From the NCBI GenBank assembly GCA_028703535.1, contig JAQVMQ010000001.1, forward strand, positions 8,818-72,817: a DNA stretch of 64,000 nucleotides. The letters run 5' to 3'. A program made the translations under genes and the position numbers. The notes under the pieces are model-generated. The model saw nothing but the letters and a program-made list of their open reading frames with translations. It ran no database searches and was not told the DNA's origin. The DNA is from Candidatus Omnitrophota bacterium. GTDB taxonomy: Bacteria; Omnitrophota; Gorgyraeia; Duberdicusellales; 4484-171. Of the stretch, positions 27,886 through 42,943 are shown piece after piece (position 1 is the stretch's first letter; each line of letters opens with the position of its first letter).

Positions 27886-28119
27886 TCAGTCTTCAAGAAG
27901 GTATGTCCTGATTTGCTCCGGTTTGAGTCCCGCCTGTCCGGCGCTACGTCCGGCCGCGGCAGTACACAGGACGAAAGTTCTGGTACCAACTGCAGTAAAC
28001 CCATAGCAACGTGCATAAAATGTCGAAAACCAGGCACCGGGCGCAACCATGCATGCGGCTAATATAGCCTGGCTGGTATCAAGCTCTATTTCCGTAACTT
28101 TCGGTTTAGTATACTGCAT
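27886..28119 (-). CDS. Small 77-aa peptide, paralog A (conserved N-terminus, Gly/Ala/Cys-containing variable tail); candidate RiPP/bacteriocin-like precursor
   Basis: Tandem paralog of 28282..28515; 8 synonymous vs 1 nonsynonymous difference over first 32 codons shows purifying selection; locally GC-rich (Ala/Gly/Arg/Pro codons). Confidence 0.55.
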   Translation of the reverse strand: MQYTKPKVTEIELDTSQAILAACMVAPGAWFSTFYARCYGFTAVGTRTFVLCTAAAGRSAGQAGLKPEQIRTYLLED

Positions 28120-28281: not shown

Positions 28282-28515
28282 CTAGGACGGCTTATCCTGA
28301 TTAGCCCCGATTTGACTTGCCCCTGCACCACCGGTACGCCCAACAGGAGAAGTCCTGCAACCCCAAACCGTTCCAGTCCCAACTGCCGTAAAAGCATAGC
28401 ATACTGAAGGTAACAAATAAAACCATGCACCCGGCGCGACCATGCATGCGGCTAATATAGCTTGACTGATATCAAGTTCTATTTCTGTAACTTTGGGTTT
28501 TCTGTATTGTTTCAT
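28282..28515 (-). CDS. Small 77-aa peptide, paralog B (same family as 27886..28119)
   Basis: MKQYRKPKVTEIELDISQAILAACMVAPGAWF conserved N-terminal region, CYAFTAVGTGT conserved mid-segment, divergent tail. Confidence 0.55.
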   Translation of the reverse strand: MKQYRKPKVTEIELDISQAILAACMVAPGAWFYLLPSVCYAFTAVGTGTVWGCRTSPVGRTGGAGASQIGANQDKPS

Positions 28516-28692
28516 TCAACTCATATTACCATATTTTTTGTTTTATCAAATAAGATCTCATTCTAACTGTTTTTTGTGCTAAAAAATTATTTTGCGACAT
28601 TAGAATGCAGCCGGCCTCTTTTTTTTCAAAGAGCTATTAATGCGTAAACACATTGCCCTAATTATACCTTCTAACACTGACAGCTAAGGGCT

Positions 28693-28740
28693 ACCCGCCA
28701 CACCATTATTTTATTTAGGCGGGTCCGCCTCTGGCAGAAC
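28693..28740. repeat. GC-rich palindromic repeat, copy 1 (cccgcc ...AT-rich loop... ggcggg tccgcc tctg gcagaac)
   Basis: Shares about 40-nt core with copies at 37112..37165 and 41795..41848; ends 10 nt before cmoB stop codon. Confidence 0.6.
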
Positions 28741-28749
28741 AGCTAATAG

Positions 28750-29724
28750 CTATTGTGGTTTTTTCGCTAATACAACCGCCCGTCTAGGTGCCGGATAACC
28801 TTCAACTGTTATATCTTTATTTAACGGATCTAAAAAATCGTTTAAAGATTCAAAAGTCATCCAATCAGTAACGCGCTGCTCATCAGAGGTAGTTTTGCTT
28901 ATATCACTTACTTTTAGATCAACATATCTGCATTTTTTAAGCCAATTGAGCAAAGTCTCCACTGACGGTATAAACCATACATTAGACATCTTGGCATATC
29001 TGTCCCGCGGTGTTAAAGCATACCCTTGAGGGCCATCTACCACCAATGTCTCAAGAACAAGCTCACCTCCGGATTTAAGAAATGAATAGATCTGTATAAG
29101 GTGATCAAACGGCGAACGACGATGATACAAAAGTCCCATCGAAAAAACCGTATCAAAATATCCGCAATTATAAGGTATATCATCAACCCCAACAGGCAAA
29201 ACATTTACCTTGTCAGACTTCAAGTATCTGTTTAATAGCTGAAACTGCATAAAATACAAAAGCGTCGGATCTACACCCATAACAAACTCCGCGCCGGCAC
29301 CTAAAGCTCTTAAACAATGATAGCCGTTGGCTGCGCCTATATCCAATATTTTCCTGCCGGAAATATCAGATATTCCATCTTTAAACCTATCCCATTTAAT
29401 ATCAGAACGCCATTCTGTATCTATATTTATACCGAAAATACTGTACGGTCCCTTACGCCAAGGCATATATTGCCTAAGGATCTCATATAATTTTGCGTAT
29501 GAAACGTCGTCAATTTCATCACGCTGTCCTATTTTTATTACATTACCATCTAACTCGAAAAATGAAGGATTCACATCAGGCAGTTCATCATAAAGATTAC
29601 GCCATCTCGGCATATCTCCATGCTTGGAGCTCTTTATTATATCTAAACTTTTACGCTCTAAAATTGCAAGCTCCTGACTATATATATTTTTAAAAAACTT
29701 TCTAATATTTTTAGTCATATGCAA
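28750..29724 (-). CDS. cmoB: tRNA U34 carboxymethyltransferase CmoB
   Basis: Near full-length similarity to CmoB (MPWRKGP, IDTEWRSD, DTVFSMG.LYHRRSP, VLETLV.DG, TVEGYPAP.RAV). Confidence 0.9.
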   Translation of the reverse strand: MHMTKNIRKFFKNIYSQELAILERKSLDIIKSSKHGDMPRWRNLYDELPDVNPSFFELDGNVIKIGQRDEIDDVSYAKLYEILRQYMPWRKGPYSIFGINIDTEWRSDIKWDRFKDGISDISGRKILDIGAANGYHCLRALGAGAEFVMGVDPTLLYFMQFQLLNRYLKSDKVNVLPVGVDDIPYNCGYFDTVFSMGLLYHRRSPFDHLIQIYSFLKSGGELVLETLVVDGPQGYALTPRDRYAKMSNVWFIPSVETLLNWLKKCRYVDLKVSDISKTTSDEQRVTDWMTFESLNDFLDPLNKDITVEGYPAPRRAVVLAKKPQ

Positions 29725-36931: not shown

Positions 36932-37111
36932 TAGATAAGTATTATCCCTAACGGATTATGATTATATAAGACAAAAAACATATACGCAAGAAAAAGTTTT
37001 ATTCGGCCAACGGCTAATAATCTAGCTATTGCTATTAGAGTGTGTCCACACACGTATCATATACTGATAAACTCATCTAGTTTTACTTTACTGCAGACAT
37101 ATGTCTTATGT

Positions 37112-37165
37112 CTTCCCGCCGCCCTATTACTATATATTGAGGCGGGTCCGCCTTTGGCGAAATGC
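37112..37165. repeat. GC-rich palindromic repeat, copy 2
   Basis: cttcccgccgccctattactatatattgaggcgggtccgcctttggcgaaatgcc; ends 1 nt before stop codon of 37167..38057. Confidence 0.6.
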
Positions 37166-37166
37166 C

Positions 37167-38057
37167 TTAATATGGGTTACGTCTAATATATTCAAGTATT
37201 TTAATATCTGCCGGGGCAAGCTCCAATTTCGCCGCATCAACAAAATCAAAAAAACCTAAAGAATCACAATCTTTAGCATACGGCACCCCTGATATTATAA
37301 CGCATTTAATAAACTCGATATATATCTTTAACGTTTCATTTTCGTCCGTAAAATCAGACAGTTTTTCCTTAGCATGAACAACCAGGCCTGTTTCTTCGAA
37401 TATTTCACGTTCAATAGCCTCAAATGCAGTTTCACCAGATTCTATACATCCGCCGGGGAATTCCCATAGCCCTCCAAAAGTATCGTTTTCTTTACGCTTA
37501 CAAAGTAAAAATTTTCCGTCTTCGACTATATACGCGCCGGCTACATCAAGAGTCTTTTTTGCTTTCTTATTATCCAATATTTTTTCTAAACAATAATCAT
37601 CCATAACAAAACCTTCTCCAATATCTGTAAGTACAGACCCCGAGATTCTAAATCCCATATGCTTATATGTATCAATCGAGTCTTTATTGTTTTTATGTAC
37701 ACGCAGAAAGATCCTCTTGATATTTCTTGATAACGCTATTTTTTCCAATAATCTGAAGACACTTTTCGCATGTCCCCTGCCCCTATATTCTACGGCTACA
37801 TATAATTTACTTAGGAATAGTCCGTCATCTTCTATATCAAAAGAAAAATAACCTGCCGGAGACTTATCATCTATTATGTAATACTCTGATTTACCTGAAA
37901 ACACCCGGCAAGCGATAGCATCCGCTGTTTGAAATTTAGAAAGCATATACACTGTTTGCTCACGACCGATTATAGGAATGTAATGTTCAAGCCATATCGT
38001 ACGCGCAAGATTCTCTATAAGTTTGAAATCATCTTTATTTGACGCTTTATACAGCAT
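37167..38057 (-). CDS. GNAT N-acetyltransferase fused to NUDIX hydrolase
   Basis: N-terminal GNAT fold (RGRGHAKSVF), C-terminal NUDIX box GGLWEFPGGCIESGETAFEAIEREIFEETG. Confidence 0.7.
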   Translation of the reverse strand: MLYKASNKDDFKLIENLARTIWLEHYIPIIGREQTVYMLSKFQTADAIACRVFSGKSEYYIIDDKSPAGYFSFDIEDDGLFLSKLYVAVEYRGRGHAKSVFRLLEKIALSRNIKRIFLRVHKNNKDSIDTYKHMGFRISGSVLTDIGEGFVMDDYCLEKILDNKKAKKTLDVAGAYIVEDGKFLLCKRKENDTFGGLWEFPGGCIESGETAFEAIEREIFEETGLVVHAKEKLSDFTDENETLKIYIEFIKCVIISGVPYAKDCDSLGFFDFVDAAKLELAPADIKILEYIRRNPY

Positions 38058-41681: not shown

Positions 41682-41794
41682 AAAAAAAGGCTCCTATATA
41701 ATTTTTCTTTGTTTTCCCCAATTCGCTTCGCTTTCGGGGCCAGCTAATACTCTATTTAGTTTCACATTTAACTCTTAATTCTTACGACGCATGC

Positions 41795-41848
41795 CTTCCC
41801 GCCACCCTATTACTATATATTTAGGCGGGTCCGTCTTCGGCGGAACGT
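41795..41848. repeat. GC-rich palindromic repeat, copy 3
   Basis: cttcccgccaccctattactatatatttaggcgggtccgtcttcggcggaac; ends 3 nt before icd stop codon. Confidence 0.6.
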
Positions 41849-41851
41849 CTT

Positions 41852-42943
41852 CTATCCTTGTATTTCCTTTACTATAGCATCAGCCATTTCTTGAGTACCG
41901 ACAGCACTGGGATCGTTCCTGTCCTCTTTAAGGTCATACGTTACGTATTTGCCGTCCTGTATAATCTTTATAACAGCGTTCTCAAGAATGTCCGCCGCTT
42001 TAGTTTCACCTAAATGACGCAGCATCAATACCGCCGACAAGATCGTAGCAGTAGCGTTAACCTTATTTTGCCCTGCGTATTTCGGAGCACTGCCATGCGT
42101 TGGTTCGAAGACCGCAATATCGGCGCCTATATTGGCACCTGCAGCAAGGCCCAACCCGCCGACAAGACCTGCACAAAGATCAGATAATATATCGCCGTAT
42201 AAGTTCTCCATAACCAAAACATCATAATTTTGCGGTACTTTAACCAACTGCATACACATATTATCAACTATAGTATCCCAATACTCAACACGCCCCTCAT
42301 ACTCTTTTGCTATATCATAGAATATCTTCAAGAACAATCCATCAGTAAATTTCATTATATTAGCTTTGTGCACACAATTCACACTTTTACGGCCGTTTTT
42401 AACTGCATATTCAAATGCCGCACGAACGATACGCTGAGTACCGAAAACAGAAATAGGTTTTATTGATACCGCGCTTTCTGCCGATATTTTTTTGTCAGAC
42501 ATCGCGTTTATCTCCGCAATAATCTTCTCTGTTTTTCTATCACCCAGCTCAAATTCTATACCCGCGTATAGATCTTCCGTGTTTTCTCTAAAAATAACCA
42601 AATCAATATTCTTATATTTGGCAAGTTTATCGGGTAAATACGTTTTTATAGGCCTAACACAGGCAAAAAGATCGAACATCTGTCTTATAGTAACGTTAAT
42701 CGAACGGAAACCTTTACCTACAGGTGTAGTTATCGGCCCTTTAATGGCTATTTTATTTTTACGGATCGACTCTATAGTCACCTCTGGCAAAAGTGAATTA
42801 TATTCGCCAAGCGCATTTTCACCCGCAGGCATACTCTCCCACTTGATATCGAGGTTTAATGCATCGACACATTTAACCATAGCTTGAGTAACCTCCGGGC
42901 CTATACCATCACCCGGCAATAATGTTACAGTATATTTACTCAT
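41852..42943 (-). CDS. Isocitrate/isopropylmalate dehydrogenase family enzyme (most likely NAD-dependent isocitrate dehydrogenase)
   Basis: LPGDGIGPEV N-terminus, NLYGDILSDL and GSAPKYAG motifs; assignment IDH vs LeuB not decidable by eye. Confidence 0.75.
   Translation of the reverse strand: MSKYTVTLLPGDGIGPEVTQAMVKCVDALNLDIKWESMPAGENALGEYNSLLPEVTIESIRKNKIAIKGPITTPVGKGFRSINVTIRQMFDLFACVRPIKTYLPDKLAKYKNIDLVIFRENTEDLYAGIEFELGDRKTEKIIAEINAMSDKKISAESAVSIKPISVFGTQRIVRAAFEYAVKNGRKSVNCVHKANIMKFTDGLFLKIFYDIAKEYEGRVEYWDTIVDNMCMQLVKVPQNYDVLVMENLYGDILSDLCAGLVGGLGLAAGANIGADIAVFEPTHGSAPKYAGQNKVNATATILSAVLMLRHLGETKAADILENAVIKIIQDGKYVTYDLKEDRNDPSAVGTQEMADAIVKEIQG

What the first reader, a model, noticed from the sequence alone, without database searches (positions are those of the whole stretch)
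28693..28740. Three-copy GC-rich palindromic repeat family placed exactly at the 3' ends of genes (also 37112..37165 and 41795..41848)
Consensus: cttcccgccRccctattactatatatt-aggcgggtccgYctYYggcgRaa. There is a 6-bp GC stem (cccgcc/ggcggg) around a roughly 20-nt AT loop, then a second short GC hairpin (ccgcc-ttYg-ggcgg). Every copy ends 1-10 nt before the stop codon of a minus-strand gene (cmoB, the GNAT-NUDIX gene, icd), so it occupies the immediate 3' UTR. Flanks share a looser motif (cggctaata / agctaatagc, seen at 28741, 37008, 43170). This resembles REP/RPE-type miniature elements acting as transcript stabilisers or terminators. Copy 1 lies about 180 nt upstream of the peptide pair.
Basis: seen in the sequence. 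Interest (0 to 1): 0.5.

Follow-up and report, generated by a model that had tools for sequence, protein, structure and literature searches.

The report
Widespread GC-rich double-hairpin insertion element
The three repeats are real, and they are copies of a tiny GC-rich two-hairpin DNA insertion element found in many uncultivated bacterial phyla: between genes, inside tRNA genes, in frame inside essential proteins, and often beside a small GIY-YIG nuclease gene. I found no published description of it.

Summary
There are exactly three copies (28694-28738, 37115-37161, 41798-41844, + strand). Each lies 5-11 nt from the stop codon of a minus-strand gene (cmoB-like, GNAT-NUDIX, icd).

They are not a private repeat of this Omnitrophota genome. 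They are a long-loop variant of a 30-nt core, CCCGCC-NNA-GGCGGG-T-CCGCC-TNN-GGCGG-A. I recovered this core more than 150 times from Patescibacteria (CPR) classes, Omnitrophota, Planctomycetia-labelled MAGs and Chloroflexota-like high-GC contigs. A covariance model built only from metagenomic copies finds the three window copies and nothing else.

Across the family:
- Orientation relative to flanking genes is neutral.
- About 30-40% of copies sit inside long ORFs, nearly always in the frame encoding PAxGGSAxGG or SAxGGPAxGG.
- Some copies lie in tRNA D- or anticodon loops.
- A gyrB copy is absent from orthologues that are 92-93% identical, giving a filled site and an empty site.
- Small GIY-YIG nuclease genes lie next to the element far more often than chance would give.

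No Rfam family, paper, plasmid record or phage record matches it.

Best reading: this is a mobile, mostly selfish double-hairpin mini-element, analogous to Rickettsia RPEs and mitochondrial GC clusters/double-hairpin elements. A terminator or stabiliser role in this window is possible but unsupported, because there is no U-tract.

The parts
28694..28738 (+). Copy 1 of the double-hairpin element. P1 arms 28694-28699 / 28718-28723 with an 18-nt AT loop. P2 arms 28724-28729 / 28733-28738 (GGCAGA, one C.A mismatch on the + strand, G.U on the - strand).
   Evidence: 24.1 bits, E=8.5e-6
28680..28693 (+). Left copy of the direct repeat flanking copy 1 (ACAGCTAAGGGCTA).
   Evidence: 12/14 match to 28739-28752; null frequency of this score about 0.0005
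28739..28752 (+). Right copy of the direct repeat flanking copy 1 (ACAGCTAATAGCTA). It contains the cmoB-like stop codon (CTA = TAG on the - strand, 28750-28752).
37115..37161 (+). Copy 2. P1 arms 37115-37120 / 37141-37146 with a 20-nt AT loop. P2 arms 37147-37152 / 37156-37161 (GGCGAA, one C.A mismatch on the + strand). Flanking heptamers are ATGTCTT (37108-37114) and ATGCCTT (37162-37168); the latter overlaps the TAA stop of the GNAT-NUDIX gene.
   Evidence: (23.0 bits)
41798..41844 (+). Copy 3. P1 arms 41798-41803 / 41824-41829 with a 20-nt AT loop. P2 arms 41830-41835 (TCCGTC, U.G) / 41839-41844. Flanking heptamers are ATGCCTT (41791-41797) and ACGTCTT (41845-41851); the latter abuts the icd stop codon at 41852-41854.
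   Evidence: 23.0 bits; identical in strain variants L001 and L267
28750..29724 (-). Upstream gene of copy 1: CmoB-family methyltransferase (Methyltransf_9).
37167..38057 (-). Upstream gene of copy 2: GNAT acetyltransferase-NUDIX fusion.
41852..42943 (-). Upstream gene of copy 3: isocitrate/isopropylmalate dehydrogenase family (icd). The C-terminus is complete compared with homologues.

Best explanation
The three repeats are solitary copies of a family of miniature GC-rich double-hairpin DNA insertion elements, called E here.

**Core and variants.** The core is 30 nt: two abutting 6-bp hairpins, CCCGCC-NNA-GGCGGG and TCCGCC-TNN-GGCGGA, usually followed by AAA. Either tip can carry extra sequence. 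In this Omnitrophota lineage the extra sequence is an 18-20 nt AT-rich loop in P1.

**How it behaves.** E is inserted into DNA, not evolved in place. It lands in intergenic DNA, in tRNA loops and, as a 10-codon in-frame module that is evidently translated, in housekeeping proteins. It has spread within genomes (copies 2 and 3 here are recent duplicates at unrelated loci) and is found across phyla.

**How it probably moves (inferred, not shown).** Movement is by break-and-repair or gene conversion using other copies as template. The small GIY-YIG nuclease genes that recurrently sit next to E may supply the breaks, or may use E as their homing site.

**In this window.** The copies were inserted, or were only tolerated, just past the stop codons of three minus-strand genes. 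When transcribed they add two stable stem-loops to the 3' end of the mRNA. This may incidentally slow 3' exonucleases or RNA polymerase, but no dedicated function is needed to explain them.
For: **Family membership**
- A model built from 46 independent metagenomic copies hits only the three window copies.

**Breadth**
- Members occur in Saccharibacteria, Shapirobacteria, Berkelbacteria, Spechtbacteria, Parcubacteria, Omnitrophota and Planctomycetia-labelled MAGs.
- They also occur in a Doudnabacteria-like contig and in Chloroflexota-like contigs of GC 0.68.

**Hairpins are real**
- Of 122 hits, 97 carry the perfect P1 5' arm, which was not part of the search pattern.
- The extended arms covary: N:N' pairs show GC/AU/UA/CG, 99.4% of cells pair, and 0 of 500 shuffles reach the observed score.

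**Insertion**
- gyrB in L148 carries E. All 120 closest homologues, including those at 92-93% identity, lack it.
- The DNA alignment shows a clean 27-30 nt gap.

**Translated, not a signal**
- 43 of 110 copies lie in ORFs.
- 18 of 21 strictly scored cases are in frame 0, in either orientation, and are 30 nt long.
- Hosts include GyrB, ValRS, ArgRS, RecG, a ClpB-like protein and CopA.

**tRNA insertions**.

**GIY-YIG link**
- It is the most recurrent protein family in E loci, present in 17 of 137. E usually lies 5-40 nt from the start codon. Pfam confirms the family.

**Intragenomic spread**
- Copies 2 and 3 are 87% identical, including loop and flanks.

**Orthologous sites**
- Three relatives have ordinary hairpin-plus-U terminators after icd instead of E.
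Against: - No transposase, recombinase or reverse transcriptase is consistently linked to E. GIY-YIG is only a nuclease, and none is present in the window or its flanks.
- About two thirds of copies have no flanking direct repeat. Those that do have repeats of variable length, 7-16 nt, often within pre-existing tandem repeats. The insertion chemistry is therefore unknown.
- Near-identity of the 30-nt core across phyla is hard to explain for a purely selfish element. It hints at a constraint from a conserved host or partner protein.
- All three window copies sit just after stop codons in the same orientation. My rough estimate is about 2e-4 for random placement within those spacers, which suggests target preference or selection that I have not explained.
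- Family members were retrieved with exact-core patterns, so the conservation of the core is partly imposed by the search.
Confidence: 0.62

Rival explanations
1. In this genome E is primarily a functional 3'-UTR RNA element. Two stem-loops placed right after the stop codon would act as a U-tract-independent terminator or pause site, or as a barrier to 3' exonucleases (the REP-like function), and would be maintained by selection.
For: - All three copies lie 5-11 nt after stop codons, in the same orientation.
- Other Omnitrophota copies are mostly in tail-to-head spacers, 7:2 in the same relative orientation.
- Relatives have canonical terminators at the icd position where this genome has E.
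- P1 is perfect in all three copies, and predicted RNA folds are -16 to -21 kcal/mol.
- No other terminator-like site occurs in those spacers.
Against: - There is no U-tract on either strand.
- P2 carries a mismatch in each copy, and the strand that would rescue it by G.U differs between copies (alignments).
- Fold z-scores are modest, -0.3 to -3.0.
- Family-wide, the element is orientation-neutral and lies near starts as often as stops.
- It sits inside ORFs and tRNAs, where a terminator would be harmful.
Confidence: 0.2
2. E is a recombination site. A portable att/attC-like site, or simply a short block of homology, would allow small cassettes (GIY-YIG gene plus tRNA) to integrate and excise. 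Solitary copies would be empty or leftover sites.
For: - L101 (Saccharibacteria) and L018 (Spechtbacteria) share one architecture. A tRNA-Gly gene is split at positions 35/36 by E, a GIY-YIG gene, an intact tRNA-Gly(CCC), a 6-8 nt duplicate and a second E in direct orientation.
- L225 has a tandem tRNA-Val array with E at each junction.
- There is a 9-nt microhomology at the gyrB site.
Against: - No tyrosine or serine recombinase is linked to E.
- Most copies are solitary 30-nt inserts in unrelated contexts, including coding sequence.
- The window holds no cassette.
Confidence: 0.1
3. E is a REP/REPIN sequence mobilised by a RAYT (Y1 HUH transposase), or a minimal IS200/IS605-derived element (PATE).
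For: - The architecture is two similar hairpins on the same strand.
- Y1_Tnp ORFs occur in 4 of 137 loci.
- In Chloroflexota-like contigs, E caps a longer hairpin preceded by GTAG.
Against: - The Y1 genes lie 2.8-5.8 kb from E.
- The one inspected (L181) is flanked by its own, different REP, GTAGGGGACGTTTAAACGTCCCCTAC.
- Most E copies have no GTAG head.
- The same sequence across phyla is unlike the lineage-specific REPs.
- No Y1 gene is present in the window.
Confidence: 0.06
4. E is a double-stranded DNA protein-binding site or a DNA-uptake-type motif (GGCGG repeats), rather than a folded element.
For: - There are four GGCGG motifs in alternating orientation.
- The central AGGCGG-GT-CCGCCT is nearly palindromic.
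- Occurrence in coding regions in tolerated frames resembles uptake sequences.
Against: - Density is low, 3 copies in about 82 kb. GGCGGGTCC is absent outside E.
- Loop lengths range from 3 to more than 40 nt, with compensatory changes in the extensions. This preserves hairpins but would destroy fixed spacing on duplex DNA.
Confidence: 0.02

Closest known systems
Rickettsia palindromic elements (RPE)
   Same: Both are short palindromic repeats. Both are found between genes and in frame inside protein-coding genes, where they are translated, and both have no coding capacity of their own (own knowledge: Ogata et al. 2000).
   Different: RPEs are about 100-150 bp and confined to Rickettsia. E is 30 nt at its core, consists of two tandem hairpins, occurs in several phyla, also sits in tRNA loops, and is linked to GIY-YIG genes. 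There is no sequence similarity.
Mitochondrial GC clusters (yeasts) and double-hairpin elements (DHE; Allomyces and other fungi), and repetitive hairpin elements of sponge mtDNA
   Same: Both are GC-rich mini-palindromes in AT-rich genomes and fold into one or two hairpins. They are scattered through intergenic regions and variable parts of genes, are mobile by an unknown mechanism, and are sometimes associated with endonuclease-driven insertions (papers listed: PMC4478555, PMC2800124; DHE details from own knowledge: Paquin, Laforest & Lang 2000).
   Different: Those elements are organellar and eukaryotic and have different sequences. E is bacterial, far more conserved in sequence across hosts, and shows a strict 30-nt in-frame form.
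REP/BIME and REPIN-RAYT systems
   Same: Both are extragenic palindromes often found after genes. REP hairpins stabilise upstream mRNA. The high-GC copies of E have a GTAG-headed outer stem.
   Different: REPs are lineage-specific and bracket their RAYT gene. E is not adjacent to Y1 transposases, and the RAYT in L181 has a different REP.
Free-standing GIY-YIG homing endonuclease cassettes (e.g. phage T4 seg genes, segB in the tRNA cluster)
   Same: Both involve small GIY-YIG ORFs wedged between or next to tRNA genes, together with duplicated pieces of the target gene (own knowledge for T4).
   Different: The ORFs here are about 90-100 aa with only the catalytic domain. They are bacterial and chromosomal, and they are accompanied by a conserved double hairpin that also exists alone in hundreds of places.
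Rho-independent terminators
   Same: Both are GC-rich stem-loops immediately downstream of stop codons.
   Different: E has no U-tract, conserved primary sequence, two hairpins, and occurrences inside ORFs and tRNAs.

Membership tests
Double-hairpin element family E (defined here) | P1 CCCGCC...GGCGGG abuts P2 TCCGCC...GGCGGA on the same strand, and the sequence is scored by a covariance model built from independent copies. | tested here: met
   three hits of 23-24 bits (E about 1e-5). The reverse strand scores 5-10 bits. No other hit in 64 kb.
Intrinsic (Rho-independent) terminator | A GC-rich hairpin followed within 0-2 nt by a run of U on the transcribed strand. | tested here: not met
   the tails are AAGACAU / AAGGCAU / UAGCCCU on the gene strand and AAC / AAU on the other strand; no terminator-like site at any copy.
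REP/REPIN-RAYT | The repeats bracket a cognate Y1 (RAYT) transposase gene and have a conserved GTAG-type head 5' of the palindrome. | tested here: not met
   No Y1_Tnp in the window. In 4 of 137 loci a Y1 gene lies 2.8-5.8 kb away. The L181 RAYT is flanked by a different REP. The GTAG head is seen only in one high-GC subgroup.
Classical MITE | Terminal inverted repeats plus a fixed-length target-site duplication, derived from an IS with a transposase. | tested here: not met
   about two thirds of copies have no flanking repeat, and those present vary from 7 to 16 nt. No parent IS was found.
RPE-like selfish DNA in coding sequence | In-frame insertion without stops in conserved proteins, absent from close orthologues. 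| tested here: met
   Met for the family. The three window copies themselves are non-coding.
Any Rfam RNA family (riboswitches, ribozymes, sRNAs, group I/II introns) | A match to a curated covariance model. | tested here: not met
   only tRNAs were found. Nothing at E even at E<=1-5.
Integron attC site | R''/L''-L'/R' boxes (RYYYAAC...GTTRRRY) at the 3' ends of arrayed cassettes next to intI. | tested here: not met
   By inspection, the sequence lacks the R boxes. The flanking genes are housekeeping genes in conserved synteny. No integrase was seen; a full search for intI was not run.
GIY-YIG-associated mobile unit (hypothesised) | A GIY-YIG ORF lies adjacent to the element. | tested here: not met
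   Not met in the window: there is no GIY-YIG ORF in 64 kb. It is met in 17 of 137 family loci elsewhere.
Transcript stabiliser (REP-like function) | An increased half-life or 3'-end accumulation of the upstream mRNA at the hairpin. | not testable with these tools
   This needs RNA-seq or Term-seq of the organism or its community.

The most novel reading that the evidence does not exclude
E together with the about 90-aa GIY-YIG protein would be a minimal two-part mobile system of a new type. A structure-specific nuclease would recognise or cut the 30-nt double hairpin, and repair would copy the hairpin (and sometimes the nuclease-tRNA cassette) into new sites. Such a system could colonise intergenic DNA, split tRNA genes and add 10-residue loops to essential proteins across several bacterial phyla, including the ultra-small CPR.
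Probability: 0.3. Interest if true: 0.85.

Novelty: new variant of a known kind. Interest (0 to 1): 0.68.

Why it matters
If confirmed, this is one of the smallest and most widely distributed mobile (or at least insertional) elements in bacteria. Its consequences and uses would include:
- It adds peptide loops to essential enzymes such as gyrase, tRNA synthetases and RecG, and it disrupts and duplicates tRNA genes. It does this in genome-reduced CPR bacteria, where junk DNA is thought to be scarce.
- The 30-nt core gives a ready marker for tracing horizontal exchange among uncultivated phyla.
- It provides a candidate substrate for the many orphan small GIY-YIG proteins.
- It is a bacterial counterpart to the unexplained mitochondrial GC clusters and double-hairpin elements, which makes the question of how such mini-palindromes move experimentally approachable.
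- For annotation, it flags spurious-looking 10-residue G/S/A/P inserts and undetected tRNA genes.

Tried and rejected
- **Rfam.** I scanned the window at gathering threshold, eight family loci at E<=1, and small regions at E<=1-5. Only tRNAs were found. This rejects a known ribozyme, riboswitch or sRNA, and it rejects a group I intron for the tRNA-Gly cassette.
- **Canonical terminator.** There is no U-tract, and the scan finds nothing at the sites.
- **RAYT/REP.** The Y1 genes are distant and have their own REP.
- **DNA-uptake-type motif.** Density is too low and spacing is variable.
- **C-terminal truncation of icd by the insertion.** The C-terminus is complete.
- **More copies in the same organism.** I extended about 9 kb beyond each end of the window and found none.
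- **Strain variants lacking copy 3.** All six contigs with the same or a nearly identical Icd carry it unchanged. The nearest other relatives are only 68-69% identical, so no empty site could be shown for the window copies themselves.
- **Literature.** A search for the core sequence and for bacterial double-hairpin or palindromic elements in CPR or Omnitrophota returned nothing relevant.
- **Plasmid and phage databases.** No match. In the IMG/VR scan only about 2 of 20 hits look genuine.
- **PDB alignment to display the ArgRS insert.** The best alignment did not cover that region.
- **Strand assignment from G.U versus A.C pairs.** Inconclusive.

Full report
**1. The observation**

A gapped core pattern gives 3 matches against 0 in 100 shuffles. 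The 9-mer GGCGGGTCC occurs nowhere else in the window.

Each copy has two parts:
- P1 is CCCGCC/GGCGGG, perfect in all three, closing an 18-20 nt AT-rich loop.
- P2 is TCCGCC-NNN-GGCGGA, directly abutting P1. Each copy has one imperfection in it: C.A in copies 1 and 2, U.G in copy 3.

Copies 2 and 3 are 87% identical over 61 nt, including the loop.

The neighbouring ORFs on the minus strand end 11, 5 and 7 nt beyond the last P2 base. Pfam confirms a CmoB-family methyltransferase and a GNAT-NUDIX fusion and an Iso_dh protein.

Predicted RNA folds give the two hairpins on both strands, at -16 to -21 kcal/mol and z-scores of -0.3 to -3.0. There is no U-run after the hairpins on either strand. A simple terminator scan finds nothing at the three sites.

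**2. The organism**

The window matches MAG GCA_028715525.1. Icd homologues with names are all Omnitrophota, and the nearest non-identical relatives are only 68-69% identical.

In three such relatives the gene order up to icd is conserved. There, icd is followed by a short spacer with an ordinary hairpin-plus-T-run terminator and no copy of the repeat.

**3. The repeat is not private to this genome**

Many were chance hits in high-GC genomes. About 30 low-GC hits were clearly homologous. They come from:
- Saccharibacteria, Shapirobacteria, Berkelbacteria, Spechtbacteria and Parcubacteria
- five Omnitrophota MAGs
- a Planctomycetia-labelled MAG

It revealed the minimal form: a 30-nt unit, CCCGCC-NNA-GGCGGG-T-CCGCC-TNN-GGCGG-A, usually followed by AAA.
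- Of 122 distinct hits, 97 carry the perfect complementary CCCGCC arm at the exact distance, although it was not in the search pattern. Ten more have one mismatch.
- Contig GC ranges from 0.31 to 0.69.
- One host contig is Doudnabacteria-like.
- The high-GC group is nearest to Chloroflexota/Dehalococcoidia.

A covariance model built only from 46 of these metagenomic copies finds the three window copies on the + strand at 23-24 bits (E about 1e-5) and nothing else in 64 kb. It finds nothing in about 18 kb of extra flank from the same organism. Other Omnitrophota loci hold up to three copies in 8 kb.

The window copies are therefore a long-P1-loop variant of this family, which I call E.

**4. 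The hairpins are selected as hairpins**

In CPR both arms are extended. P1 reads CCCGCC-N-AA-A-[variable hairpin]-A-UU-N'-A-GGCGGG, and P2 has a similar design.

Across 15 such copies:
- The N:N' positions show all four Watson-Crick combinations with no breaks.
- 99.4% of cells pair.
- 0 of 500 shuffles reach the observed covariation.
- Slid controls collapse.

G.U against A.C counts do not identify a single folding strand.

**5. Context across the family**

Of 110 distinct copies in contigs below 55% GC, 43 lie inside ORFs of a greedy gene set. With a stricter test, 21 of 70 minimal copies lie in long ORFs. Of these, 18 are in the frame that reads PAxGGSAxGG (sense) or SAxGGPAxGG (antisense).

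Hosts include GyrB, ValRS, ArgRS, RecG (three organisms, same site), a ClpB-like ATPase and CopA. Lengths are 30 nt or, for extended forms, other multiples of three without stops. The element is therefore evidently translated, not removed.

The intergenic copies are split 16:15 in orientation relative to co-directional genes and lie near starts as often as near stops. Within the small Omnitrophota long-loop subgroup, most copies are in tail-to-head spacers, 7:2 in the window's orientation.

**6. It is an insertion**

GyrB of L148 contains SAKGGPASGG. None of the 120 closest homologues has it, including proteins 92-93% identical.

The DNA alignment with two of these orthologues shows a clean 27-30 nt gap. 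The boundary is ambiguous by 3 nt (TCC/TCT). The element's first 9 nt (TCCGCCAAA) also occur 12 nt upstream in the target.

Flanking direct repeats are enriched over a permutation null: 5.5% against 0.2% at score >=7. They are still present in only a minority, vary from 7 to 16 nt, and often reflect pre-existing tandem repeats.

In the window:
- Copy 1 is flanked by a 12/14 direct repeat that includes the cmoB stop codon.
- Copies 2 and 3 share heptamer flanks, ATGYCTT / AYGYCTT.

**7. Partners**

All-against-all clustering of ORFs from 137 E-bearing loci puts one family on top. It is a small (about 90-120 aa) GIY-YIG protein, present in 17 loci (Pfam PF01541). In about 14 cases E lies 5-40 nt from its start codon, in either orientation.

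These genes usually abut tRNA genes.

Two CPR classes share a striking architecture, seen in L101 and L018. In order, it reads:
- the 5' half of a tRNA-Gly, ending at anticodon-loop position 35
- E
- a GIY-YIG gene
- an intact tRNA-Gly(CCC)
- a 6-8 nt duplicate of the break-point sequence
- E
- the matching tRNA 3' half

In other loci E sits in the tRNA D-loop (L059, L089, L070; a tandem tRNA-Val array in L225). Rfam sees no group I intron there.

Y1 (IS200/RAYT-like) transposases occur in four loci, but kilobases away. The one examined carries its own, different GTAG-REP.

**8. Known or not**

- No Rfam family matches.
- The core sequence occurs in no paper of the library in a relevant context.
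- Searches on CPR or Omnitrophota repeats and hairpins returned nothing pertinent.
- There is no hit in the plasmid or phage collections.
- Only about 2 of 20 IMG/VR hits look genuine.

The closest described phenomena are Rickettsia palindromic elements (own knowledge) and mitochondrial GC clusters, double-hairpin elements and repetitive hairpin elements.

**9. Interpretation**

*Shown:*
- The repeats are members of a widespread family.
- The hairpins are under structural selection.
- The element is inserted DNA.
- It is tolerated and translated in essential genes.
- It is statistically linked to GIY-YIG genes and to tRNA genes.

*Inferred:*
- It is a largely selfish mobile mini-element.
- It spreads by break repair or gene conversion, with the GIY-YIG nuclease as driver or as a hitch-hiker that uses E as its homing site.

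*Not explained:*
- The chemistry of insertion.
- The cross-phylum identity of the core.
- Why all three copies in this window sit immediately after stop codons in one orientation.

A secondary role as a 3' stem-loop that protects or ends transcripts remains possible for this genome (I give it about 0.2). It lacks the defining terminator feature and could not be tested.

**10. Verdict**

The REP, terminator and 3'-UTR generalisations are not supported.

The finding opens onto an apparently undescribed, multi-phylum double-hairpin insertion element. I classify it as a new variant of a known kind (miniature palindromic insertion elements).

Noticed in passing
L101:798-1361 and L018:5948-6540 (CPR genomes): A tRNA-Gly gene is split at anticodon-loop position 35/36 by a cassette. 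In order, the cassette is E, a GIY-YIG ORF, an intact tRNA-Gly(CCC), a short duplicate of the break-point and a second E. The matching tRNA 3' half follows. The same architecture occurs in Saccharibacteria and Spechtbacteria. Rfam sees no group I intron there.
   Followed up: partly
L225:5800-6240: There is a tandem array of tRNA-Val(CAC)-derived units. One intact gene is followed by two copies that carry E in the D-loop and have a truncated 5' acceptor strand. ARAGORN calls only the intact gene.
   Followed up: partly
L148 (gyrB), L214 (valS), L243 (argS), L223/L144/L005 (recG), L187 (clpB-like), L191 (copA): These housekeeping proteins carry 10-residue inserts, PAxGGSAxGG or SAxGGPAxGG, encoded by the 30-nt element. 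The recG site is shared by three different organisms, once with the extended 60-nt form.
   Followed up: partly
L145, L147, L155, L164, L175, L177, L209, L222, L249, L252 (GC 0.67-0.69, Chloroflexota-like): Here E caps a longer conserved hairpin, cGTAGGGGCsGAGCTTyC[E]AGCTCsGCCC. This is a REP-like composite with a GTAG head and forms a three-way junction.
   Followed up: no
L181:5925-5955 and 6450-6480: A RAYT-like Y1 transposase gene is bracketed by its own palindromic REP, GTAGGGGACGTTTAAACGTCCCCTAC, which is unrelated to E.
   Followed up: partly
window 27886-28119 and 28282-28515 (- strand): Two paralogous 77-aa ORFs lie downstream of copy 1 on the gene strand. They share an N-terminus, M(K)QY.KPKVTEIELD.SQAILAACMVAPGAWF, and a 91-nt stretch that is 86% identical at the DNA level. 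They have no Pfam hit.
   Followed up: no
window 37012, 41742, 43178 (+ strand): An RGCTAATA motif lies 55-100 nt from copies 2 and 3 and upstream of icd. Overall enrichment is weak (13 found against 6.9 expected), and 10 of the 13 are on the + strand. The instance at 28741 is explained as part of copy 1's direct repeat. The others are unexplained.
   Followed up: partly
Minimal elements from L139-L258: The two triloops are correlated in a non-Watson-Crick way. Position 8 A goes with position 23 C in 37 of 41 cases, position 8 G with position 23 T in 25 of 42, and position 7 C with position 24 G in 12 of 18. This could reflect subfamilies or an interaction between the loops.
   Followed up: no
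L117:5763-5812 (Omnitrophota relative, rpsD-rpoA spacer): There is a weak match to the element model (15.6 bits, E=0.012), TTCCGCC-AAAATGCTT-GGCGGA followed by a second hairpin. It may be a decayed copy in a relative of the window organism.
   Followed up: no
L121 and L131 (IMG/VR contigs): Two viral-labelled contigs carry apparently genuine copies with an intact P1. The other 18 viral hits look like chance matches in high-GC DNA.
   Followed up: no
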